64,000 bases of DNA, taken from NCBI GenBank assembly GCA_001790445.1, contig MGCQ01000008.1, positions 26,676 through 90,675 on the forward strand. The letters run 5' to 3'. The DNA is from Candidatus Saccharibacteria bacterium RIFCSPHIGHO2_12_FULL_41_12 (lineage in GTDB: Bacteria; Patescibacteriota; Saccharimonadia; Saccharimonadales; 2-12-FULL-41-12). Below the pieces are notes generated by a model. It ran no database searches. It saw only the letters and a program-made list of their open reading frames with translations, and was not told the DNA's origin. Positions 331 to 49,580 of this stretch are shown one piece after another; the stretch's first letter is position 1, and every line of letters starts with the position of its first letter. The translations under genes were made by a program, and so were the position numbers.

Positions 331-3189
331 TTATGTTCCTGGTGGGCCAGCTTCACCGCGACCAGCAGCAGCCGCTTCTTCTCTTGCCCTACTGCCATAT
401 TCTCGGCGAATTTGACCAAAGTCTGGATCAGTTCTTAGTGCTTCAAAAACTTCAGAATAGTTCATCTGACCATCGGCAGGTGCTACACCGCCAAAACCTT
501 CGATCATTCGGTCTCTTATATGAGGCGGAAGAGTGCGTATGTCGACTTGGGTGTTGTTCATCATATCTGCTAGATCGCGAGCAATTTTAGGGTTTGCGTA
601 GCCTGCAGCATCTAGCTTACCTGCCAGAGTAGCAAACTCTTGGATAGCTCTTCTGCCGGCACCTTCACTGTTATCGCCCAGCACCCTAACCATATTCCTT
701 TGCATGGAAGGTAACATATTCCTTCTAAATGCTGTTTCTTTCATATTAAGCATACTCCCACCCATAGAGTCGGCAGTGTGATCATAATGATCGGCTGTGG
801 CCTGTTCGGCAGTTAAAGCTCCTGTGTGAGAAGCTTCAAGATTGGTTATATCATCTGTAAAGCTACCTACTTGATCCGCACGGTCGGTTTGACCTAGGTT
901 TTTACGGAATTCTCCAAGTAGGCGTGCCGCATGACCACGATTGTTGCCTGCAAGCTGATTAATAAGTGCATATTTGTTGTCGTGATCACCAGTTTCGGAA
1001 TAATCTAGCCCTGTGCCACTAGTTGATAGACCTAGGCCTGCAGCATTATCGAATACTTCCTTGCCAGCTTCTTGCTTAGCTCGCCATACTTCCATAGCCG
1101 CAGTATCTAGCCCTTGTTGACGTTCTGCAGAATAAGTGCCATCTGCATTATCTGCGCCAAATCTAGCGTGAGATCTATTGACTAGCTCTCTACGAATTTC
1201 CTCAAAATTATCTCCCCTAATACCAGCCCAAAGTTTGTCATCGTCGTTACTGAATGCAGCAAAAGTATGGCTATTTTTCATATAGTCCATAGCTGTGTCC
1301 ACAACGTGTGTTCCCTCTCTTGATCCACTTGCGGCGTTGTATCCTGTACGCATTGCTGCCAAGTTATTTCTAAACCCACGCACACCTCTCCTCCCTTCTC
1401 TGGCGCCACCCAATCCTGAGCCAATAGCTCCTGCAGAAAGCCCTGCGGTGTCAAGGTTCTCTTTTGCAGAGTGAGCAGCATTACCAATAATGTTACCTCT
1501 TGTATTTCGAAGTTCCCCAAATTTTTTGTTAGTCCTTTTGCTGAGACCACTAGTAAAGTTGCTTGCCATGTTCCCGACTGAACCTATCATGCCCCCAGCT
1601 AATTTGAAGGAAAAAGGGATTAAAAACATAGGGGTAAACACAGCCACAACACCTATCAGAAGAGAAATTATCCCTACAGAGTCATTGGTTTTTGTACTGT
1701 TGGTGATGAAAATAACTGACATTATGTTGGCCAGAGCAAATATAACCGCAATAATTGGGTAAACCATAAGCGTCTTTAAGAATTGGGTCCACCAAACTTT
1801 AAAATACTTCTCGGTACCAGGGAGTATAAAGCAAGCGATAGCTATCGGAGAGATAATAGTCAACAGCACCACTAACGCAAATCTGACAACCAAGGTGAAT
1901 AGGACTGCTAAGGCAGCAAAAGAGACAATTATGAGAATTGGTATTAACACATAAAGACCAAGCAAGGTAAGAGCTCCCCCTACTGCCCCAGCTGACACGA
2001 TAGCCGTTATTGCGCCAGCTGCTAGACCTCCTCCAAGAGTTCCCACAATGGCAGATTCTGTGTTGCCTTCGGTTTGCGCATCATATGCTCCAGCAACGAT
2101 AAAAGGTTTCGTTAATAGGTAATTCATGCCGTTGCCTATCACATTGGTTATATCAATGGCTGCCACACACAAATATATAGAGATATTTATTGCAATAATG
2201 CCGATCAATATCCTTGGCGCCATTTTTTTGGCCGTATACGCATCTACAGCATTTATACCCCAGCCTTCTGTTAGCTGTGAAAGCACAAGAATCAGTAGAA
2301 CTCCTATCAAGAGGATGTTTGCTATCAGTCTGAAACTTTGCCAAACTTTATAAAAGTCGTTATTACTGTCTATACCAACAGGTGTCCCTTGTAAGAGGGG
2401 GGTGACTAGGTACTGAAAAACCCCGTCAGTTATCTTTGCGCCCATTTCCATAACTGGGCAGAGTATCCATGACAAGGGATTAGCGAACGATGCATCGCAT
2501 GATGGTTCTTGTTTGCTTCCATCTTCCCCTGGGTCTGAGCTACTTGATGCCACAGAAGGGTCACCTATCGGTTTGTCAGATTCAGCGGGTTTTCCATCTG
2601 CCCCAATCTTAATAAGTTTTAAGCTCGCAACGGAGGCCAATCTGTTTTTGCAATCTTGCATTGACCCAGCTATGGGCTTCCAGTATTTGGTCCCGTTATC
2701 TTTAAAGTCTGTAAACATATTTTTATTACAGCCAAGAGCTTCATATAGATGATCTTGGTTGTCTTCGCATTTGTCGTTCCAGAGGTCAGTGTCGTTTTTT
2801 ACTTTCTTACATTTTTCCTCTATGAGCTGAATTTGTGCAGCCGCTCTGTTATAACACTCTTTGAATTCGCCTTGTTTGGTGTACCATTTTTTATCTCCAT
2901 CATCAGCTTCATGTTGGTAAAACATTTTTCCTGAACAGCCGAGTTCTCTATCAAGTCTTTCCTCCCATTCAGAACATCCTTCTGTACCATTCTGGTTAGT
3001 AGTGAATATGTAGCCAATATTGTTTAAATCATGGCAGTTTTTACCAACTAGGTATAAACGGTTATTGCCATATTTAGCGTCAGCTGCCAGCGCTGGTTTT
3101 GGGCTGACTATTAAGGTAGAAACAAGACTAAACATAGTGAGGAATATGTAAAACGCACCCAAAACAAAGTATTTACTGGAAGAAACCAT
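331..3189 (-). CDS. large polytopic membrane protein, VirB6/TrbL-like candidate (952 aa)
   Basis: ORF track. Signal-like N-terminus (FYIFLTMFSLVSTLIVSPKPALA). A ~250-aa Cys-rich ectodomain carries an internal repeat (LGCSGKMF..KKWY..C.NR versus LGCNKNMF..TKYW..CKNR). About 8 hydrophobic helices span aa ~290-545 (nt ~1557-2322), followed by a ~400-aa hydrophilic tail with no motif I recognise. The gene is divergent from the pilin-like array. Confidence 0.5.
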   Translation of the reverse strand: MVSSSKYFVLGAFYIFLTMFSLVSTLIVSPKPALAADAKYGNNRLYLVGKNCHDLNNIGYIFTTNQNGTEGCSEWEERLDRELGCSGKMFYQHEADDGDKKWYTKQGEFKECYNRAAAQIQLIEEKCKKVKNDTDLWNDKCEDNQDHLYEALGCNKNMFTDFKDNGTKYWKPIAGSMQDCKNRLASVASLKLIKIGADGKPAESDKPIGDPSVASSSSDPGEDGSKQEPSCDASFANPLSWILCPVMEMGAKITDGVFQYLVTPLLQGTPVGIDSNNDFYKVWQSFRLIANILLIGVLLILVLSQLTEGWGINAVDAYTAKKMAPRILIGIIAINISIYLCVAAIDITNVIGNGMNYLLTKPFIVAGAYDAQTEGNTESAIVGTLGGGLAAGAITAIVSAGAVGGALTLLGLYVLIPILIIVSFAALAVLFTLVVRFALVVLLTIISPIAIACFILPGTEKYFKVWWTQFLKTLMVYPIIAVIFALANIMSVIFITNSTKTNDSVGIISLLIGVVAVFTPMFLIPFSFKLAGGMIGSVGNMASNFTSGLSKRTNKKFGELRNTRGNIIGNAAHSAKENLDTAGLSAGAIGSGLGGAREGRRGVRGFRNNLAAMRTGYNAASGSREGTHVVDTAMDYMKNSHTFAAFSNDDDKLWAGIRGDNFEEIRRELVNRSHARFGADNADGTYSAERQQGLDTAAMEVWRAKQEAGKEVFDNAAGLGLSTSGTGLDYSETGDHDNKYALINQLAGNNRGHAARLLGEFRKNLGQTDRADQVGSFTDDITNLEASHTGALTAEQATADHYDHTADSMGGSMLNMKETAFRRNMLPSMQRNMVRVLGDNSEGAGRRAIQEFATLAGKLDAAGYANPKIARDLADMMNNTQVDIRTLPPHIRDRMIEGFGGVAPADGQMNYSEVFEALRTDPDFGQIRREYGSRAREEAAAAGRGEAGPPGT

Positions 3190-3230
3190 AACAATAATGT
3201 ATCATCTTTTCTTGGCATTGGTACAGCAGT

Positions 3231-3259
3231 TTGCAAAGTAAAGTATTATTTGGGATAAT
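3231..3259 (+). promoter_or_regulatory. sigma-70-type promoter candidate for the pilin-like array
   Basis: TTGCAA (3231-3236), a 17-nt spacer, then GATAAT (3254-3259), 18 nt upstream of the ATG at 3277. An AAGG ribosome-binding site lies in between. Confidence 0.4.
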
Positions 3260-3276: not shown

Positions 3277-3981
3277 ATGAAAAACTTTCACCTAAAAATA
3301 AAAACCACCATAGCCTTTTGCTATTTTATTATTGCATTGTCTGTTCTTTTTGGAGGACAAGGATATGCTGAAACAGTGAGCTGTGGTCCGCTTAATTCAG
3401 TGGACAGGACTATCTGTGAAGCAAGTTTGACTCAGTGTGGGGACAGAGACACGGATAGTGATAAAGCTTGTAGAAAAGGATTTCGTGAAGGAGCGAAGAA
3501 AACAGGCGATAATAAAAGCGATGCTTGCAAGAGCTTCAAGAGCAACAATAAAGCTGAGTGCGAAAATGGCTACAACGCAGGGGCAAGTAAACAAGATGCT
3601 CTTAACAAAGAGGCATCTGCCCAAGCTCCATCACCAATTCCGGGTTCGGTAGGGACGCACCAGTGTGGCAATTTAAGTGATAAATCTGAGAACGTTAATA
3701 CAAAAATCAACTTTGGGTGTTTGGGCTCAAAGGCACCAGGTGGAACGGGCCCAATAGAAGACCTCTTGTATGCTTTAATCCGTTTTCTTTCAAATGGCAT
3801 AGGCATCATGATGGTGGTAGCTCTTATTGGTGCAGGCATAAAGTACACAACTAGTGAGGGCAATGCAGAACAAACTATGAAAGCCAAAAGACAAATCCAA
3901 AATATAATAATTGCTCTATTTATCTACCTATTTACGTATGTGATTTTGCAATTCTTAATCCCAGGAGGGATATTTAAATAA
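3277..3981 (+). CDS. VirB2/TrbC-topology pilin-like protein, paralogue 1 (234 aa, long 8-Cys ectodomain)
   Basis: Signal-like N-terminus (IAFCYFIIALSVLFGGQGYA), an ectodomain with 8 Cys, and a C-terminal two-helix hairpin (GIGIMMVVALIGAGIKYTTSEGNAEQTMKAKRQIQNIIIALFIYLFTYVILQFL). Confidence 0.55.
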   Translation: MKNFHLKIKTTIAFCYFIIALSVLFGGQGYAETVSCGPLNSVDRTICEASLTQCGDRDTDSDKACRKGFREGAKKTGDNKSDACKSFKSNNKAECENGYNAGASKQDALNKEASAQAPSPIPGSVGTHQCGNLSDKSENVNTKINFGCLGSKAPGGTGPIEDLLYALIRFLSNGIGIMMVVALIGAGIKYTTSEGNAEQTMKAKRQIQNIIIALFIYLFTYVILQFLIPGGIFK

Positions 3982-3997
3982 GGTATAATATGAACCA

Positions 3998-4381
3998 ATG
4001 ATAAACTTCTTAAATATCTTTAACTTTTTTGCAGCCAGCGGAGAAACACCTGCAGAAGTGGCTTGTCAAAAAGGTAGCTTTTTTGCCTTCCCTACTTGGT
4101 ATAAATATCTAGAGGTGGATACGAATTATTGCAACCCAAAGATAGACAATATCAATGACATTTGGTTGATAATGCTGGCAATAGTCGAAATTTTGATTCG
4201 GCTTGGAGTGATTTTGGCTATTATCTTTATAATTTATGGGGGCGTAAGTTTAATAATGGCTCGTGGCATTCCAGAAAAAGTTAACTCGGCTCGTGACATG
4301 ATTATAGATGCTATAACAGGACTTGTTATTGGTCTGGTGGCTATAACGTTGATCAGTTTCTTGGGGAAGAGTTTTGGTTAA
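3998..4381 (+). CDS. VirB2/TrbC-topology pilin-like protein, paralogue 2 (127 aa)
   Basis: Short hydrophobic N-terminus, a 2-Cys ectodomain, then TM1-loop-TM2 (ILAIIFIIYGGVSLIMARGIPEKVNSARDMIIDAITGLVIGLVAITLISF). Confidence 0.55.
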   Translation: MINFLNIFNFFAASGETPAEVACQKGSFFAFPTWYKYLEVDTNYCNPKIDNINDIWLIMLAIVEILIRLGVILAIIFIIYGGVSLIMARGIPEKVNSARDMIIDAITGLVIGLVAITLISFLGKSFG

Positions 4382-4382
4382 G

Positions 4383-4700
4383 ATGTTGGACAAGATAAAT
4401 TTTTTCATACTAGCAATTAGCAAACCTATAAACTGTGAAAGTGGCGCCAATTGTCAAACAACCCTTCCCGAAATAAAAGCCACAGACGCAACTGCAGAGA
4501 AGATATTTGGAATTATTTTTGGCACTATTGCTGCAGTAGCAATACTTATAATTGTGCTGTCAGCGCTGAACTGGGCGATTCGGGGTGGCGACCCAGAAGT
4601 TATTACTCGCTCCCGAAAAGCCATAATCTATGCAGTCGTTGGGCTTGCTATTGCTCTACTTTCTGAAACGTTGGTACTAACGCTCCTGAACAGGGTATAA
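4383..4700 (+). CDS. VirB2/TrbC-topology pilin-like protein, paralogue 3 (~105 aa)
   Basis: The track ORF starts at TTG 4374, overlapping the upstream stop, so I prefer ATG 4383 (MLDKINFFILAIS). It has a 2-Cys segment (NCESGANC) followed by TM1-GGDPEVITRSRK-TM2. Confidence 0.55.
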   Translation: MLDKINFFILAISKPINCESGANCQTTLPEIKATDATAEKIFGIIFGTIAAVAILIIVLSALNWAIRGGDPEVITRSRKAIIYAVVGLAIALLSETLVLTLLNRV

Positions 4701-4701
4701 A

Positions 4702-5109
4702 ATGAAAAAACCCTTACTCATATTAATTATTACGCCGATATTATTGATTTTTTTGCAAGCCTCCGCCCAAGCTGTAGATCTATTCAGGAATAACTGTAAT
4801 GGATCTGCCGCAGACTCAGCCGTTTGTAAGGACAAAAAAGCTGTAGAAAAAGCAGATGCGTCAAAGAATGAAGATAACCCGATATTTGGTCCAAACGGCA
4901 TAATAACTATAATTACAAATATTTTGTCAGCGGTGGTCGCTATAGGGGCAGTTATATCAATTGTTTATGCTGGCATGAAATTGATTTTTTCGGGGTCTAA
5001 TCCTCAAGAAGCAAACAGTGCCCGTGAGAGGATTATCTATGCATGTGTGGCTTTAGTGTTTGTTGCACTAGCCCAGATAATAGTCAGGTTTGTTATCAAT
5101 AGGTTATAA
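4702..5109 (+). CDS. VirB2/TrbC-topology pilin-like protein, paralogue 4 (135 aa)
   Basis: Signal peptide (LLILIITPILLIFLQASAQA), a 2-Cys ectodomain, then TM1-SGSNPQEANSARER-TM2. Confidence 0.6.
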   Translation: MKKPLLILIITPILLIFLQASAQAVDLFRNNCNGSAADSAVCKDKKAVEKADASKNEDNPIFGPNGIITIITNILSAVVAIGAVISIVYAGMKLIFSGSNPQEANSARERIIYACVALVFVALAQIIVRFVINRL

Positions 5110-5121
5110 TCGGTAGTAAAT

Positions 5122-5526
5122 ATGACAAAAACATTAATTACAAAGATATTACTTGCAACCCTGCTTTTAGTCGGAGTCTTCCAATATTCTGCAAATGTGC
5201 CGGTCTTTGCCCTAATAGGCTCTGGTTCTAAAGAACAAGCTTGTAAAGGTGCAGAGCTTGATAATGCAACAGGGGCAAATTGTGGTGAAAAGGCCAGTTC
5301 AGATACACAAAAAATATTGGAAAGTGTGATAAATATCATGTCGGCTGTTGGTGCTGTGATTGCTGTGCTGGTAATCATCGTCAATGGGATCAAATTGGTC
5401 CTGTCTTCTGGAGATTCTGCCAGAGTTAACACCGCTCGTTCAGGAATAATTATGGCGGTAGTTGGGCTGATTGTCATTGCCCTTGCGCAGACTTTAGTTA
5501 AATTTATTATCAACAGGGTGGGTTGA
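5122..5526 (+). CDS. VirB2/TrbC-topology pilin-like protein, paralogue 5 (134 aa)
   Basis: Signal-like N-terminus, a 2-Cys loop (ACKGAELDNATGANC), then TM1-SSGDSARVNTARS-TM2. Confidence 0.6.
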   Translation: MTKTLITKILLATLLLVGVFQYSANVPVFALIGSGSKEQACKGAELDNATGANCGEKASSDTQKILESVINIMSAVGAVIAVLVIIVNGIKLVLSSGDSARVNTARSGIIMAVVGLIVIALAQTLVKFIINRVG

Positions 5527-5585
5527 TGAGTGTGCAAAGTTGTGCTATAAAGTAATTAGAATATAACAAAAGGAAACCAAAGAAA

Positions 5586-5999
5586 ATGAGAAAATTTATT
5601 AGACAAATAGTTACCACATTAGCACTGGCTACTGTCATGTTAACACCAGCACTAGCGACAACTTCAGTATTTGCGGCTGACATAGACAAGAGCCTTTGCA
5701 AAGGGGCTGAACTGAAGCTTAGTGGAGAAGGAGATTGCTCAACGACTGAAGCAGCAGGAACAGGTTTAGACAAATTGATAACAGATGTTGTTAACATATT
5801 TTCCGTAATTGTCGGCGTAGTAGCCGTAATAATGATCATCTACGGTGGTTTCCGCTATATCACTTCAGGTGGGGACTCTGGTAACGTTACTACTGCAAAA
5901 AACACTATTCTCTACGCTCTTGTCGGGCTTGTCATAGTTGCCTTGGCGCAGTTTATCGTAAAGTTTGTACTGAGCAAGGCCACTGGGCTCGGCGACTAA
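5586..5999 (+). CDS. VirB2/TrbC-topology pilin-like protein, paralogue 6 (137 aa)
   Basis: AAGGA ribosome-binding site. Signal peptide ending VFAADI, a 2-Cys loop (LCKGAELKLSGEGDC), and the C-terminal hairpin NIFSVIVGVVAVIMIIYGGFRYITSGGDSGNVTTAKNTILYALVGLVIVALAQFIVKFV. Confidence 0.6.
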   Translation: MRKFIRQIVTTLALATVMLTPALATTSVFAADIDKSLCKGAELKLSGEGDCSTTEAAGTGLDKLITDVVNIFSVIVGVVAVIMIIYGGFRYITSGGDSGNVTTAKNTILYALVGLVIVALAQFIVKFVLSKATGLGD

Positions 6000-6010
6000 G
6001 GTTTGCAAAG

Positions 6011-6445
6011 ATGAAAACTAAAATATTTTCGTTCGTATTTGGGCTGAGCCTTCTCGTCTCGTTTGCAGGTGCCATGAATACCAGTACTGTTCTAGCAGAT
6101 TCTAAAAGTGAACTTTGCAGTGGCGCAAACTTTGATATAAGTGGTGGTAGCGATGCAGGTTGTGATGGTAAATCTGCCTGTGAAGACGACCCATCTAAAG
6201 CAAATTGTCCGGCAGGCAAGCTAAATACCCTGATCAACAATATAGTTAACATTTTATCTGTAATTGTCGGTGTTGCTGCCGTAATTATGATCATTTATGG
6301 CGGGTTTAGGTACGTTACTTCTGGGGGCGACTCTGGCAATTTGACTACAGCGAAAAACACCATACTCTACGCTCTCGTCGGGCTTGTTGTGGTTGCCTTG
6401 GCGCAGGTGATCGTTAAGTTTGTGATTAACAAAGCCAGTTTTTGA
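6011..6445 (+). CDS. VirB2/TrbC-topology pilin-like protein, paralogue 7 (144 aa, 4 Cys)
   Basis: AAGG ribosome-binding site, a signal peptide and a 4-Cys ectodomain. The C-terminal hairpin is nearly identical in protein sequence to paralogues 6 and 8. Confidence 0.6.
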   Translation: MKTKIFSFVFGLSLLVSFAGAMNTSTVLADSKSELCSGANFDISGGSDAGCDGKSACEDDPSKANCPAGKLNTLINNIVNILSVIVGVAAVIMIIYGGFRYVTSGGDSGNLTTAKNTILYALVGLVVVALAQVIVKFVINKASF

Positions 6446-6489
6446 AGCCGAGACTTTGAAGTCTCTCTCAGTCTATGGTATAAATTAGT

Positions 6490-6906
6490 ATGATGAGACT
6501 TTTGATGTACTCACTGGCTAGCGTGTCCCTGTTTTTGGCTTTTTTCTCACCAGTATTTCTATCCTCAAGCGTTTACGCAGCAGATATCTCGAATAATCTT
6601 TGTAAAGGAGCGGACTTGCGGTTTAGTGGCAATGCAAACTGTGCCGATACCACTAAAGATTCCAGCGCCAAGCTAGACAAGCTGGTAACCGACATAGTCA
6701 ATATATTTTCTGTCATTGTCGGTGTAGTCGCAGTGATCATGATTATTTATGGCGGATTTCGCTACATTATTTCTGGTGGAGACTCTAGCAATGTCACCAA
6801 TGCGAAAAACACCATACTCTACGCTCTCGTCGGGTTAGTCGTAGTCGCTTTGGCGCAGTTTATCGTAAAGTTCGTACTGAGCAAGGCCACTGGGCTTGGG
6901 GTTTAA
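6490..6906 (+). CDS. VirB2/TrbC-topology pilin-like protein, paralogue 8 (138 aa)
   Basis: Signal peptide ending VYAADI and a 2-Cys loop (LCKGADLRFSGNANC). The last ~50 nt of coding DNA differ from paralogue 6 at only one position. It is preceded by a small hairpin (gagactttgaagtctc) and a TGgTATAAA extended -10-like box. Confidence 0.6.
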   Translation: MMRLLMYSLASVSLFLAFFSPVFLSSSVYAADISNNLCKGADLRFSGNANCADTTKDSSAKLDKLVTDIVNIFSVIVGVVAVIMIIYGGFRYIISGGDSSNVTNAKNTILYALVGLVVVALAQFIVKFVLSKATGLGV

Positions 6907-7069
6907 CTCGACTTACGCAAATCTCCACACTCTCAAACTCTCCAGATGAGTCCAGAACCCCTTTTTCTGATGTCACCACACCTACCAGGTGTGCTTCCAC
7001 CAGAGAAAAGAACTTCTAAATCTCCTCTGGAAGATTCTGGAGAATGCGGAGATTTGCGTAAGTCGAGTT
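6905..7069. repeat. 165-bp long-hairpin repeat, copy 1 (MITE-like or structured RNA)
   Basis: The termini aactcgacttacgcaaatctcc and ggagatttgcgtaagtcgagtt are reverse complements, and the interior also pairs (tctccaga/tctggaga, ctttttctg/cagagaaaag, apex cacacct-acc-aggtgtg). The element is ~96% identical to 49158-49322 and begins inside the stop codon of pilin paralogue 8. Confidence 0.85.
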
Positions 7070-7087
7070 AACAGGTTCAATTAAAAA

Positions 7088-7108
7088 AGCCGCTACGTGC
7101 TAGCGGCT
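7088..7108. terminator. bidirectional intrinsic terminator candidate
   Basis: Hairpin agccgcta-cgtgc-tagcggct flanked by an A-run upstream and a T-run downstream. It sits between the pilin array / hairpin repeat and the convergent hsp20 gene. Confidence 0.6.
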
Positions 7109-7129
7109 TTTTAGTGACTAATTTTTGTT

Positions 7130-7591
7130 TTAGAGAATTTCTATTTTCTTCACAGTATCTTGTTTGAGTTTAGTGAAACTAACTGTTAGCACGCCATCTT
7201 TAAGAACTGCTTCGATCTCGTCTTCTTTTACAGGGACAGGCAATGAAATACTGCGGCTAAACTCACCCCAGTAACATTCCTGGACAAAATAGTTTTCAAC
7301 ATCGTCTTCGTTACCAGCACTGAGTGTACCTTTGATGCTTAGGGTATTATCAGCAATACTGACATCCAACTCATTTTTGTTAACCCCTGCAGTTCGTGCT
7401 TTAACCACTAATCGCTCTTTTGTCTCGTAGACGTCGACTGCTAGCTGTCCTGGGACAACTTCTTCTTCGTCCCATTCTTCCTCTACAGCGGCTGCCTCTG
7501 GTTCTCCTAAATCATCACCCAAGAAGGCGGCCGTCAGCTCATCTTCCATCAATAGATCCTCGTCATCACGCTGTTTTCGCGCCATCATCAT
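7130..7591 (-). CDS. small heat-shock protein, Hsp20/alpha-crystallin family
   Basis: Alpha-crystallin domain pattern (LAVDVYETKERLVVKARTAGVNKNELDVSIADNTLSIKG...GEFSRSISLPVPVKEDEIEAVLKDGVLTVSFTK). The start is set at ATG 7591 because GGAGG lies 7 nt upstream; the track start at TTG 7606 would overlap that ribosome-binding site. Confidence 0.85.
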   Translation of the reverse strand: MMMARKQRDDEDLLMEDELTAAFLGDDLGEPEAAAVEEEWDEEEVVPGQLAVDVYETKERLVVKARTAGVNKNELDVSIADNTLSIKGTLSAGNEDDVENYFVQECYWGEFSRSISLPVPVKEDEIEAVLKDGVLTVSFTKLKQDTVKKIEIL

Positions 7592-7716
7592 GTTATTACC
7601 CTCCAAGTTAATTTTTTCGCAGATTTTGAGATGTTTATGTTATAAACAGTATAACCCCACAAGGTTCACTCTAGCAATAGCGAACCAACAATATTTACAA
7701 CATAAAAATTACCACG

Positions 7717-49157: not shown

Positions 49158-49322
49158 TACTCGACTTACGCAAAATCTCCACACTCTCAAACTCTCCAGA
49201 TGAGCCTAGAACTCCTTTTTCTGATGTCACCACACCTACGGGTGTGCTTCCACCAGAGAAAAGAACTTCTAAATCTCCTCTGGAAGATTCTGGAGAATGC
49301 GGAGATTTGCGTAAGTCGAGTA
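49158..49322. repeat. 165-bp long-hairpin repeat, copy 2
   Basis: About 96% identical to 6905-7069. All differences fall in the 5' arm or apex (an extra a at gcaaaatc, gagcctagaactcc versus gagtccagaacccc, and ctacgggtg versus ctaccaggtg). The 3' arm is identical. Confidence 0.85.
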
Positions 49323-49580
49323 TAATTAATATGAAAAGGAAACAAAAATGAATGATGACCAAGAAGATATAACTGAAGAACAACGACTTCAGCAAGCCCA
49401 GAATGCAGGGACATCTTCGAGCGCTCCAGCTGGCGGTCAAGCGAGTTTTAGTACGAGGCAAACAAAACTAACAAAAAGTATGCCAAAAAGGCTTCAAAAT
49501 TAGAGTCAAAAATTAATAACTTAAGCTCTCCAAAATCCGAGTCTGATAAACTGCAAGGTCTTCAGAATAGGATCAACGCA

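What the first reader, a model, noticed from the sequence alone, without database searches (positions are those of the whole stretch)
5586..6906. Mosaic conservation among the last three pilin paralogues: near-identical C-terminal hairpin, divergent Cys-loop ectodomain
Paralogues 6, 7 and 8 share an almost identical TM1-loop-TM2 module (NIFSVIVGVVAVIMIIYGGFRY.TSGGDS.N.T.AKNTILYALVGLV.VALAQ.IVKFV). At the DNA level the last ~50 nt of paralogues 6 and 8 differ at one position (ttggcgcagtttatcgtaaagttYgtactgagcaaggccactgggct). Their exposed segments between the signal peptide and TM1 differ in sequence and in Cys number. This fits recent duplication or gene conversion of the assembly module together with diversification of the exposed tip. 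That behaviour is expected of an antigenically or host-specificity variable filament subunit.
Basis: seen in the sequence. Interest (0 to 1): 0.55.

Follow-up and report, generated by a model that had tools for sequence, protein, structure and literature searches.

The report
Saccharibacterial T4SS pilin paralogues, partly homogenised
The last three genes of an eight-gene array of VirB2-like secretion-system pilins in a groundwater Saccharibacterium are old duplicates: their membrane hairpin is held constant by strong selection and occasionally overwritten between copies by short gene-conversion tracts, while each copy keeps its own conserved outer loop. This is a new evolutionary detail of an already known gene array.

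Summary
Genes p6 (5586-5999), p7 (6011-6445) and p8 (6490-6906) end an eight-gene tandem array of PF18895 (T4SS_pilin, VirB2-like) genes. The array sits next to a TrbL/VirB6-like gene in a Candidatus Saccharibacteria genome. The helix-loop-helix modules of the three genes are 79-91% identical in protein, and their N-terminal halves are much less alike.

- **Not a recent duplication.** Synonymous sites between p6 and p8 in the module are fully randomised (18 of 52 identical-residue codons match, 17.9 expected). Each paralogue also has 1:1 orthologues in related genomes.
- **Gene conversion is real but short here.** One tract is 47 nt shared by p6 and p8 (scan P=0.0045). Another is 33 nt shared by p7 and p8 (P=0.026).
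- **Conversion is much clearer in relatives.** Identical tracts reach 174-184 nt. Trees switch from orthology in the signal peptide and ectodomain to within-genome clustering in loop, helix 2 and tail. Sixteen of 28 loci with such paralogue pairs show identical runs of 30 nt or more.
- **The ectodomains are not hypervariable.** They are specific to each paralogue and under purifying selection between orthologues (pN/pS 0.04-0.56).
- **Copy number varies.** Arrays hold 5-9 genes across genomes.

Pilin arrays of this kind are already published. The domain-restricted concerted evolution appears not to have been described. Interest is modest.

The parts
331..3189 (-). 952-aa multi-pass membrane protein, TrbL/VirB6-like T4SS component, divergently transcribed from the pilin array
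   Evidence: No Pfam or NCBIfam hit of its own. It aligns end to end (546 bits, 38% identity) with the syntenic 960-aa protein of L084, which carries a precomputed PF19590 TrbL_3 hit.
3230..3259 (+). promoter-like site upstream of p1 (TTGCAA-17-GATAAT with TG), candidate operon promoter
   Evidence: Consensus scan only. The number of sites found is not above shuffle expectation, so this is an inference.
3277..3981 (+). p1, 234-aa pilin-like protein with a long Cys-rich ectodomain
   Evidence: PF18895 at 25.4 bits, just under the 26.6 cut-off. Orthologue found in L084.
3998..4381 (+). p2 pilin paralogue (127 aa)
   Evidence: PF18895 at 31 bits. Orthologues found in L081 and L084.
4374..4700 (+). 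p3 pilin paralogue (108 aa; start codon uncertain, overlaps the end of p2)
   Evidence: PF18895 at 32.5 bits. Orthologues found.
4702..5109 (+). p4 pilin paralogue (135 aa)
   Evidence: PF18895 at 44.2 bits. Orthologues found.
5122..5526 (+). p5 pilin paralogue (134 aa)
   Evidence: PF18895 at 43.8 bits. Orthologues found.
5586..5999 (+). p6 pilin paralogue (137 aa): signal peptide about residues 1-30, 2-Cys ectodomain 31-60, helix-loop-helix module from L61 (nt 5766-5996)
   Evidence: PF18895 at 56 bits. Most conserved member between genomes: 91% aa identity to L081 and 84% to L084.
6011..6445 (+). p7 pilin paralogue (144 aa): 4-Cys ectodomain, module at nt 6221-6442
   Evidence: PF18895 at 59.3 bits and PF04956 TrbC/VirB2 at 30.7 bits, above the 27.9 cut-off. 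Orthologues in L081, L084 and L085.
6490..6906 (+). p8 pilin paralogue (138 aa): 2-Cys ectodomain, module at nt 6673-6903
   Evidence: PF18895 at 58.2 bits and PF04956 at 28.0 bits. 100% identical to an NCBI protein of a Candidatus Saccharibacteria RIFCSPHIGHO2_12_FULL MAG. The AF2 model shows helices 52-94 and 99-133. Absent from L084 and L001.
5943..5989 (+). p6 copy of the 47-nt tract shared with p8 (1 mismatch); probable gene-conversion tract
   Evidence: 14/15 same codons against 24/73 outside, scan P=0.0045.
6850..6896 (+). p8 copy of the 47-nt tract shared with p6
6350..6382 (+). p7 copy of a 33-nt tract identical to p8 (encodes AKNTILYALVG); probable conversion tract
   Evidence: 11/11 same codons, scan P=0.026.
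6802..6834 (+). p8 copy of the 33-nt tract identical to p7
6903..7071 (.). about 170-nt palindromic MITE-like repeat that begins inside the p8 stop codon; not part of the pilin mosaic
   Evidence: 32-nt arms, 94% complementary. RNA fold of -99 kcal/mol, z=-12. A second full copy lies at about 49158-49323.
7084..7112 (.). 12-bp perfect stem flanked by A and T runs: bidirectional intrinsic terminator between p8 and the convergent HSP20 gene
   Evidence: HSP20 lies at 7130-7606 (-).

Best explanation
p6, p7 and p8 are three anciently duplicated copies of the most conserved ('p6-type') member of the VirB2-like pilin array. That array belongs to the chromosomal, monoderm-type type IV secretion system of Saccharibacteria.

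Each protein is made with a cleavable signal peptide. The mature part has a short disulfide-loop N-terminal segment followed by two long hydrophobic helices joined by a GGDS loop. This is the TrbC/VirB2 hairpin, which would pack subunit against subunit in a pilus or channel.

Three processes together give the mosaic:
1. Very strong purifying selection on the hairpin (pN/pS 0.01-0.15). This alone explains most of the protein identity.
2. Recurrent short-tract, non-reciprocal recombination (gene conversion) between the tandem copies. It is confined to the hairpin, mostly loop, helix 2 and tail, because only there are the copies similar enough to pair. It keeps the copies co-assembling on one machine.
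3. Paralogue-specific N-terminal loops that are themselves conserved between species. They therefore represent stable functional specialisation of co-expressed subunits, not rapid antigenic change.

Shown here: family membership, synteny, orthology, synonymous saturation, conversion tracts, tree incongruence, purifying selection and copy-number variation.

Inferred: signal-peptide cleavage, disulfide formation, surface exposure of the N-terminal segment, operon co-expression and filament formation.
For: Family and context:
- PF18895 scores of 56-59 bits.
- 3,807 homologues, almost all from Saccharibacteria.
- Synteny with the TrbL_3, PrgI, TraC-like and VirB4-like genes of L084.
- The AF2 model gives two long helices.

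Old paralogues:
- p6/p8 module has 18/52 same codons against 17.9 expected.
- pS is saturated.
- 1:1 orthologues of p2-p8 exist in L081, of p1-p7 in L084, and of p6-p8 in L085.

Conversion:
- In the window, scan P=0.0045 for p6/p8 and 0.026 for p7/p8.
- In L081, p6' and p8' are nucleotide-identical over 174-179 nt, and p8' has acquired the p6-type residues ITS/DSGN.
- L084 has a 56-nt identical tract.
- Same-codon run permutations give P<=2e-4 in L081 and L084.
- Quartet sites switch from orthology (31-46 sites against 2-4) in signal plus ectodomain to within-genome grouping (7-13 against 1-4) in loop, helix 2 and tail, Fisher p=3e-5 to 3e-8.
- NJ bootstrap for the N-terminal part gives the p6 clade 94 and the p7 clade 100. 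For the C-terminal part it gives {Hg5,Hg7} 100, {Kg1,Kg3} 98, {Ng6,Ng7} 70 and the window trio 58.
- The within-genome excess of shared codons is limited to the module (0.55 against 0.36, p=3e-5). It is absent from signal plus ectodomain (0.34 against 0.39), which excludes genome-wide codon bias.
- In the survey, identical runs of 30 nt or more occur in 43-60% of within-locus pairs against 0.2% of between-locus pairs in the 75-85% module-identity bin (8.9% in the 85% or higher bin, which includes same-species strains not removed as duplicates), and in 16 of 28 loci.
- In L033 the tract runs from the late ectodomain to the stop codon, with a divergent 5' half.

Purifying selection on ectodomains: pN/pS 0.04-0.56.
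Against: - Within this window the conversion signal is weak. Across most of the p6/p8 module, synonymous sites look random, p6/p7 reaches only P=0.06, and the window trio has only 58% bootstrap support.
- All comparison genomes are metagenome assemblies. Collapse or chimerism of repeats could in principle create identical tracts, although such repeats would more likely break short-read contigs. The pattern also recurs in many independent assemblies, including a 766-kb contig.
- No expression, processing or filament data exist for this organism.
- The Foldseek search gave only generic helical hairpins.
- pN/pS was computed with a simple counting method against saturated pS, so site-specific positive selection on a few ectodomain residues is not excluded.
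Confidence: 0.75

Rival explanations
1. Purifying selection alone. The near-identical hairpin reflects only extreme constraint on an assembly module in old paralogues, and the short identical DNA runs in this window are chance or codon preference. There is no gene conversion in this genome.
For: In the p6/p8 module outside the tail, 18/52 codons match against 17.9 expected. p6/p7 scan P=0.06. Helix 2 is the most conserved part family-wide, with a top-residue frequency of 0.91.
Against: The scan statistic, corrected for window choice, still gives P=0.0045 for p6/p8 and 0.026 for p7/p8. p7/p8 share 27/46 codons against 15 expected, P=2e-4. The window trio groups together in the C-terminal tree and never in the N-terminal tree. 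Relatives show unambiguous tracts. The codon excess is absent from the N-terminal half.
Confidence: 0.13
2. A recent duplication (or wholesale conversion) of the module was followed by rapid, positively selected diversification of the exposed tip, giving an antigenically or host-specificity variable filament subunit.
For: Copy number of the terminal paralogues varies between genomes, and arrays hold 5-9 genes. The N-terminal segments differ between paralogues. Published speculation for Patescibacteria arrays goes the same way (PMC12102498). The p7 ectodomain evolves fastest, with pN/pS 0.33-0.56.
Against: Synonymous saturation between paralogues. Orthologues of each paralogue have conserved ectodomains; p8 shows 1 aa change in 35 against L083 while synonymous sites are saturated, pN/pS 0.04. 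All copies are full-length genes with their own start codon and signal peptide in one tightly packed same-strand array, so they are not silent cassettes.
Confidence: 0.07
3. The identical DNA tracts mark a functional nucleotide-level element (RNA structure or regulatory site) embedded in the 3' end of the genes, or they are assembly artefacts.
For: The p6/p8 tract lies at the 3' end of the gene. Unusually high between-genome nucleotide identity also exists at 5532-5680 and 5741-5890 in the window-against-L081 comparison. All data are MAGs.
Against: Tract positions and sequences differ from genome to genome. They cover helix 1 to tail in L081, AKNT to LAQ in L084, and late ectodomain to stop in L033. 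The tract sequences are genome-specific, not conserved. No Rfam family matches there. The pattern recurs in independent assemblies and long contigs.
Confidence: 0.05

Closest known systems
VirB2-like pilin arrays of Patescibacteria/Saccharibacteria T4SS (Pfam PF18895 T4SS_pilin). Includes the essential six-pilin array of Southlakia epibionticum ML1 (Wang et al. 2023, PMC10633639), the survey of 441 arrays by Quinonero-Coronel et al. 2025 (PMC12102498) and a review (PMC12857230).
   Same: Same protein family, same tandem arrangement next to VirB6/TrbL-, VirB3/PrgI- and VirB4-like genes, and same phylum. The modal array in my survey has six genes, as in ML1.
   Different: This array has eight genes because the sixth type is present three times. 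p6/p8 are 66% identical overall and 91% in the module, above the 'maximum 54%' reported within arrays. Domain-restricted gene conversion between array members is not mentioned in those papers, and no paper held the terms Patescibacteria, gene conversion and pilin together.
Bartonella Trw T4SS: tandemly amplified trwL (virB2 homologue) and trwJ copies, evolving by amplification, recombination/concerted evolution and diversification (Nystedt et al. 2008, cited in PMC2883598)
   Same: Tandem amplification of a VirB2-family pilin inside a T4SS locus that lacks a coupling protein. Copy number varies between species, there is recombination between copies, and co-expressed variant surface subunits have been proposed.
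   Different: The Bartonella copies are reported to have diversified much more than other Trw components and are linked to host specificity. Here the orthologous ectodomains are under purifying selection and the host is a bacterium. The system is a monoderm type, and no link between paralogue set and host is known.
TrbC/VirB2 conjugative pilins (Pfam PF04956; F-pilin TraA, T-pilin VirB2)
   Same: Long signal peptide followed by two hydrophobic helices joined by a short polar loop. p7 and p8 reach the PF04956 gathering score. In solved conjugative pili the termini face outward and the inter-helix loop faces the lumen (my own knowledge of the published structures), which would put the variable N-terminal segment on the surface.
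   Different: There is an extra 30-40-residue disulfide-loop segment before helix 1. No sequence match to any PDB chain was found and no specific structural match. The cell is a monoderm. Cyclisation, acetylation or lipid binding are unknown.
Mbov_0395 family pilin-like conjugal transfer protein of Mycoplasma ICEs (NCBIfam NF045849)
   Same: Best NCBIfam match for all eight proteins, over the hairpin. This fits the reported kinship of the Patescibacteria T4SS with monoderm MPF-FATA systems.
   Different: All scores (17.6-36.3 bits) are below the 40-bit cut-off, so these are not members. The ICE proteins are single-copy.

Membership tests
PF18895 T4SS_pilin (Patescibacteria VirB2-like pilin) | Profile score at or above the Pfam gathering threshold (26.6 bits) | tested here: met
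   p6 scores 56.0, p7 59.3 and p8 58.2 bits. p2-p5 score 31-44 bits. p1 scores 25.4 bits, just below the threshold.
PF18895 T4SS_pilin (Patescibacteria VirB2-like pilin) | N-terminal signal peptide followed by a two-helix hydrophobic hairpin | tested here: met
   The AF2 model of p8 has helix 2-24 (signal), then helices 52-94 and 99-133 with pLDDT 75-90. There is an A-x-A motif before ADI. Cleavage itself is inferred.
PF18895 T4SS_pilin (Patescibacteria VirB2-like pilin) | Encoded in a T4SS gene cluster (VirB4, VirB6/TrbL, VirB3/PrgI) | tested here: met
   A TrbL-like gene lies at 331-3189 in the window. The syntenic locus L084 shows TrbL_3, PrgI, TraC-like and VirB4-like ATPase genes immediately upstream. 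VirB4 itself lies outside this window.
PF18895 T4SS_pilin (Patescibacteria VirB2-like pilin) | Assembles into an extracellular pilus or channel | not testable with these tools
   No such structure has yet been shown for any Patescibacterium, according to the review PMC12857230.
PF04956 TrbC/VirB2 pilin | Profile score at or above the gathering threshold (27.9 bits) | tested here: inconclusive
   p7 scores 30.7 (met), p8 28.0 (borderline) and p6 26.2 (below).
PF04956 TrbC/VirB2 pilin | Fold or sequence match to solved conjugative pilins | tested here: inconclusive
Concertedly evolving tandem VirB2 arrays (Bartonella trwL type) | Tandem amplification with copy number varying between related genomes | tested here: met
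   Complete arrays hold 5 (6 loci), 6 (31), 7 (16), 8 (5) or 9 (2) genes. p8 is present in the window, L081, L083, L085 and L086 and absent from L084 and L001.
Concertedly evolving tandem VirB2 arrays (Bartonella trwL type) | Recombination or gene conversion between copies | tested here: met
Concertedly evolving tandem VirB2 arrays (Bartonella trwL type) | Elevated or diversifying substitution in the surface-exposed part between orthologues | tested here: not met
   Ectodomain pN/pS is 0.04-0.09 for p8, 0.15-0.19 for p6 and 0.33-0.56 for p7, all below 1 with saturated pS. Site models were not run.
Cassette-type pilin antigenic variation (Neisseria pilE/pilS type) | One expressed locus plus silent, 5'-truncated donor cassettes | tested here: not met
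   All eight genes are full length with a start codon and signal peptide, on the same strand, with gaps of -8 to 59 nt.
Cassette-type pilin antigenic variation (Neisseria pilE/pilS type) | Conversion tracts transfer the variable, exposed region | tested here: not met
   Tracts cover the conserved hairpin. The variable N-terminal half follows orthology.

The most novel reading that the evidence does not exclude
The expansion of the p6-type pilin to two or more copies in some Saccharibacteria could be a host-range device. Several co-expressed subunits share one conversion-maintained assembly hairpin, so they can all be polymerised by the single essential T4SS. Each displays a different disulfide-loop 'face' that recognises a different host-cell surface. 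Gene conversion would be the mechanism that lets the exposed loops diverge without the subunits losing compatibility. The set of loops would then predict which hosts an epibiont can exploit.
Probability: 0.15. Interest if true: 0.65.

Novelty: new member of a known kind. Interest (0 to 1): 0.35.

Why it matters
The T4SS and its pilin array are essential for the epibiotic growth of the one Saccharibacterium tested genetically (PMC10633639). Nobody yet knows what the array builds or why it has so many members. This analysis makes three points.
- The members are ancient, individually conserved types. That argues for distinct structural roles or a fixed repertoire, not for antigenic variation.
- The sixth type is the most constrained, and it is the one that gets amplified.
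- Its amplified copies are kept compatible by gene conversion limited to the hairpin.

This gives concrete hypotheses for the cultivable strains: which subunit is the major one, and which parts are interchangeable. It also corrects the published impression that array members never exceed about 54% identity. It is an incremental evolutionary insight, not a new kind of system.

Tried and rejected
- **Recent duplication.** Rejected on synonymous saturation and on orthologues found in other genomes.
- **Genome-specific codon bias as the cause of the 'concerted' sites.** Rejected because the excess of shared codons is confined to the module and absent from the N-terminal half of the same genes. GC3 also differs little, 0.35-0.43.
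- **'Longest run' permutation for p6/p8 in the window.** Not significant (P=0.11), because one T/C difference splits the tract. I replaced it with a scan statistic.
- **Search for near-identical strains.** An exact 36-nt tail pattern in metagenome contigs gave 0 hits. The protein-guided scan returned nothing closer than 87%. Strain-level variation therefore could not be assessed.
- **Pfam and NCBIfam on the 952-aa neighbour.** No hit even at E=10. Its identity rests on orthology to a TrbL_3-annotated protein.
- **Rfam on the whole window.** Only tRNAs were found.
- **Promoter and terminator consensus scans.** These gave nothing above shuffle expectation inside the array.
- **Not tested.** Formal GENECONV/RDP, PAML site models, and a check for a diversity-generating retroelement. 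The conserved orthologous ectodomains make the last unlikely.
Full report
**What is there.** The window comes from a Candidatus Saccharibacteria MAG of the RIFCSPHIGHO2_12_FULL series. p8 is 100% identical to an NCBI protein of that genome. Positions 3277-6906 on the + strand hold eight tightly packed small genes, p1 to p8. All hit Pfam PF18895 (T4SS_pilin): p6, p7 and p8 at 56-59 bits, p2-p5 at 31-44 bits, and p1 just under the cut-off. Hits to PF04956 (TrbC/VirB2) are weaker; p7 and p8 reach its threshold. The best NCBIfam match for all eight is the Mycoplasma ICE pilin-like family NF045849, below its cut-off.

The divergently transcribed 952-aa membrane protein at 331-3189 has no profile hit of its own. 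It is the full-length orthologue of a TrbL_3-annotated protein in locus L084. In L084 the same array is preceded by PrgI-, TraC-like and VirB4-like genes. So the finding lies at the 3' end of the pilin array of the chromosomal T4SS. Downstream lie a MITE-like palindrome, a bidirectional terminator and a convergent HSP20 gene.

**Observation check.** The three ORFs, the shared C-terminal string and the 47-nt DNA string (5943-5989 and 6850-6896, one T/C difference) are all present. Module identity is 0.91 (p6/p8), 0.81 (p6/p7) and 0.79 (p7/p8). Full-length identity is 0.66, 0.60 and 0.55. An AlphaFold2 model of p8, built on 95 homologues, gives four elements:
- a signal helix at residues 2-24;
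- a low-confidence segment at 27-50 containing the two cysteines;
- a long helix at 52-94;
- a second long helix at 99-133.

Only p7 differs in Cys number (4 against 2). Across 95 family members, 88 of 90 scored have exactly two Cys. The first ~17 mature residues (ADIxxxLCxGADLxFSG) are fairly conserved. The truly variable part is about 13 residues around the second Cys. Helix 2 is the most conserved part.

**Are the copies recent?** No. Between p6 and p8, pS in the module is saturated. Of 52 codons encoding identical residues in the module outside the tail, 18 are the same codon. Codon usage predicts 17.9. The 91% protein identity of that stretch is therefore due to purifying selection on old copies.

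Syntenic arrays support this:
- L081 (Hainich groundwater) has 1:1 orthologues of p2-p8.
- L084 and L001 have p1-p7 but no p8.
- L085 has p6, p7 and p8.
- L083 and L086 have p8 and part of p7.

All are followed by the same HSP20 and phosphoribosyltransferase genes. Synonymous divergence between these genomes is itself saturated in flanking genes, with pS 0.7-0.9.

**Is there gene conversion?** Yes, but in this window it is short. I ran a scan statistic over identical-residue codons and judged it by permutation, so that the choice of window is accounted for. It picks out three stretches:
- the p6/p8 tail, with 14/15 same codons against 24/73 elsewhere, P=0.0045;
- an 11-codon p7/p8 stretch encoding AKNTILYALVG, 33 nt identical, P=0.026;
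- p6/p7, which reaches only P=0.06.

The relatives make the process unmistakable. In L081 the p6 and p8 orthologues are nucleotide-identical over 174-179 nt, from helix 1 to the tail. The p8 orthologue there carries the p6-type residues (ITS, DSGN) instead of the p8-specific IIS, DSSN seen in four other genomes. This gives the direction of that event, p6 to p8. The L081 p7 orthologue shares 53-nt tracts with both. In L084 the p6 and p7 orthologues share 56 nt. Run-length permutations give P<=2e-4 for these pairs, whereas most between-genome pairs show no such runs; the exceptions are pairs of window p6 with the L081 copies (P=0.0015-0.006; see "Noticed in passing") and two L081-L084 pairs at P=0.02-0.04.

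Quartet analysis shows the switch. In signal plus ectodomain, 31-46 informative sites support orthology against 2-4 that support within-genome grouping. In loop, helix 2 and tail it is 1-4 against 7-13 (Fisher p=3e-5 to 3e-8).

NJ bootstraps agree:

| Partition | Grouping | Bootstrap |
|---|---|---|
| N-terminal part | p6 clade | 94 |
| N-terminal part | p7 clade | 100 |
| C-terminal part | {L081 p6', p8'} | 100 |
| C-terminal part | {L085 p6', p8'} | 98 |
| C-terminal part | {L084 p6', p7'} | 70 |
| C-terminal part | window trio | 58 |

In the N-terminal tree, within-genome clades get 0% support.

The excess of shared codons within genomes is confined to the module (0.55 against 0.36, p=3e-5). 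It is absent from the N-terminal halves of the same genes (0.34 against 0.39). Genome-specific codon preference is therefore not the cause.

I surveyed about 140 distinct loci from GTDB genomes and metagenomes. Among within-locus paralogue pairs with at least 75% module identity, 43-60% carry identical runs of 30 nt or more. Only 0.2% of between-locus pairs of similar protein identity do so. Sixteen of 28 loci with such pairs are affected. The longest runs are L106 with 184 nt, L033 with 125 nt and L010 with 95 nt. In L033 the tract starts in the late ectodomain and runs to the stop codon, while the 5' half is divergent even at synonymous sites.

**Are the exposed segments diversifying?** Not on the evidence available. 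Between orthologues the ectodomain pN/pS is 0.04-0.09 for p8, 0.15-0.19 for p6 and 0.33-0.56 for p7. Because pS is saturated, these values are upper bounds. The ectodomains are paralogue-specific but stable. All copies are complete genes in one same-strand array with very short spacers, so this is not a silent-cassette system.

Copy number does vary. Complete arrays have 5 to 9 genes, with a mode of 6. The extra genes are additional p6-type copies at the 3' end.

**Mechanism proposed.**
- The hairpin is the part that must fit the shared assembly machine and neighbouring subunits, so it is under extreme constraint (hairpin pN/pS 0.01-0.19 in orthologues).
- Because the hairpins stay similar, they remain substrates for homologous pairing between tandem copies.
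- Short non-reciprocal exchanges then homogenise them further, occasionally changing residues, as in L081.
- The tracts end where similarity ends, near the ectodomain boundary.
- The N-terminal loops lie outside this process and keep paralogue-specific, conserved sequences.
- In solved conjugative pili the termini face outward (my own knowledge of the published structures). The loops are therefore the likely exposed face, but this is inferred, not shown.

**Comparison with what is known.** Tandem VirB2-like pilin arrays in Patescibacteria are published. Quinonero-Coronel et al. report 441 arrays of 2-11 genes, with a stated maximum within-array identity of 54% (PMC12102498). The six-pilin array of S. 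epibionticum is essential (PMC10633639; review PMC12857230). The nearest evolutionary precedent is the Bartonella Trw system. There the virB2 homologue trwL is tandemly amplified, recombines between copies and varies in number (Nystedt et al. 2008, as cited in PMC2883598). Those copies are reported as strongly diversified, which I do not see here. I found no paper combining the terms Patescibacteria, gene conversion and pilin.

**Verdict.** The object is a new member of a known kind of array. Its evolutionary detail, hairpin-restricted concerted evolution on top of ancient, conserved paralogue identities, appears to be undescribed. Interest is 0.35.

**Caveats.**
- All comparison data are metagenome assemblies.
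- The dN/dS estimates are simple counts.
- Strain-level data were not obtainable.
- Nothing about expression, processing or filament formation is shown.

Noticed in passing
window 6903-7071 and window ~49158-49323: A palindromic repeat of about 165-170 nt (32-nt arms; RNA fold -99 kcal/mol, z=-12) begins inside the TAA stop codon of p8 without changing the protein. A near-identical second copy lies 42 kb away. The flanks suggest a TA (or TTAA) target duplication, so it looks like a MITE. It is absent from the first 84 related loci. L081 has a different long inverted repeat at the same intergenic position.
   Followed up: partly
window 5532-5680 and 5741-5890, compared with L081 ~1630-1990: The p5-p6 spacer with the p6 signal-peptide region, and p6 helix 1, are 87-95% identical in DNA between the window and L081. 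This includes a 53-nt identical run, and pS is about 0.26. The rest of the syntenic region is at about 70-78% with saturated synonymous sites. Possible causes are recombination between lineages (Saccharibacteria are naturally competent) or nucleotide-level constraint, for example an internal promoter or 5' mRNA element for the most conserved pilin.
   Followed up: partly
window 6490-6579 (p8 signal peptide), compared with L081, L083, L085 and L086: Among p8 orthologues the signal peptide is almost unalignable (40-52% nt identity, pN/pS 0.4-0.7). The adjacent ectodomain is 73-80% identical with pN/pS 0.04-0.09. The 5' end of this gene turns over much faster than the mature protein.
   Followed up: partly
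window 5586-6906; L033, L106, L081: Within-array identity here (66% for p6/p8 overall, 91% in the module), and up to 100% module identity in L033, exceeds the 'maximum identity of 54%' stated for Patescibacteria VirB2 arrays in PMC12102498.
   Followed up: yes
window 3277-3981 (p1) and first array gene in L001-L080: The first array gene encodes a much larger protein, 234 aa here, with a long Cys-rich ectodomain before the hairpin. Its size varies widely between genomes, about 81-388 aa in the mechanical ORF calls. Its Pfam score is just below threshold.
   Followed up: no
window 4374-4381: p3 as listed starts at a TTG that overlaps the last 8 nt of p2. An in-frame ATG three codons downstream (MLDK...) is an alternative start. 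Orthologues begin differently, so the true start is uncertain.
   Followed up: no
window 7553-7716: The 5' end of the HSP20 gene, and the spacer between the divergent HSP20 and phosphoribosyltransferase (ComF-like) genes, is 87-93% identical to L081. This is well above the coding baseline and fits a conserved shared regulatory region.
   Followed up: no
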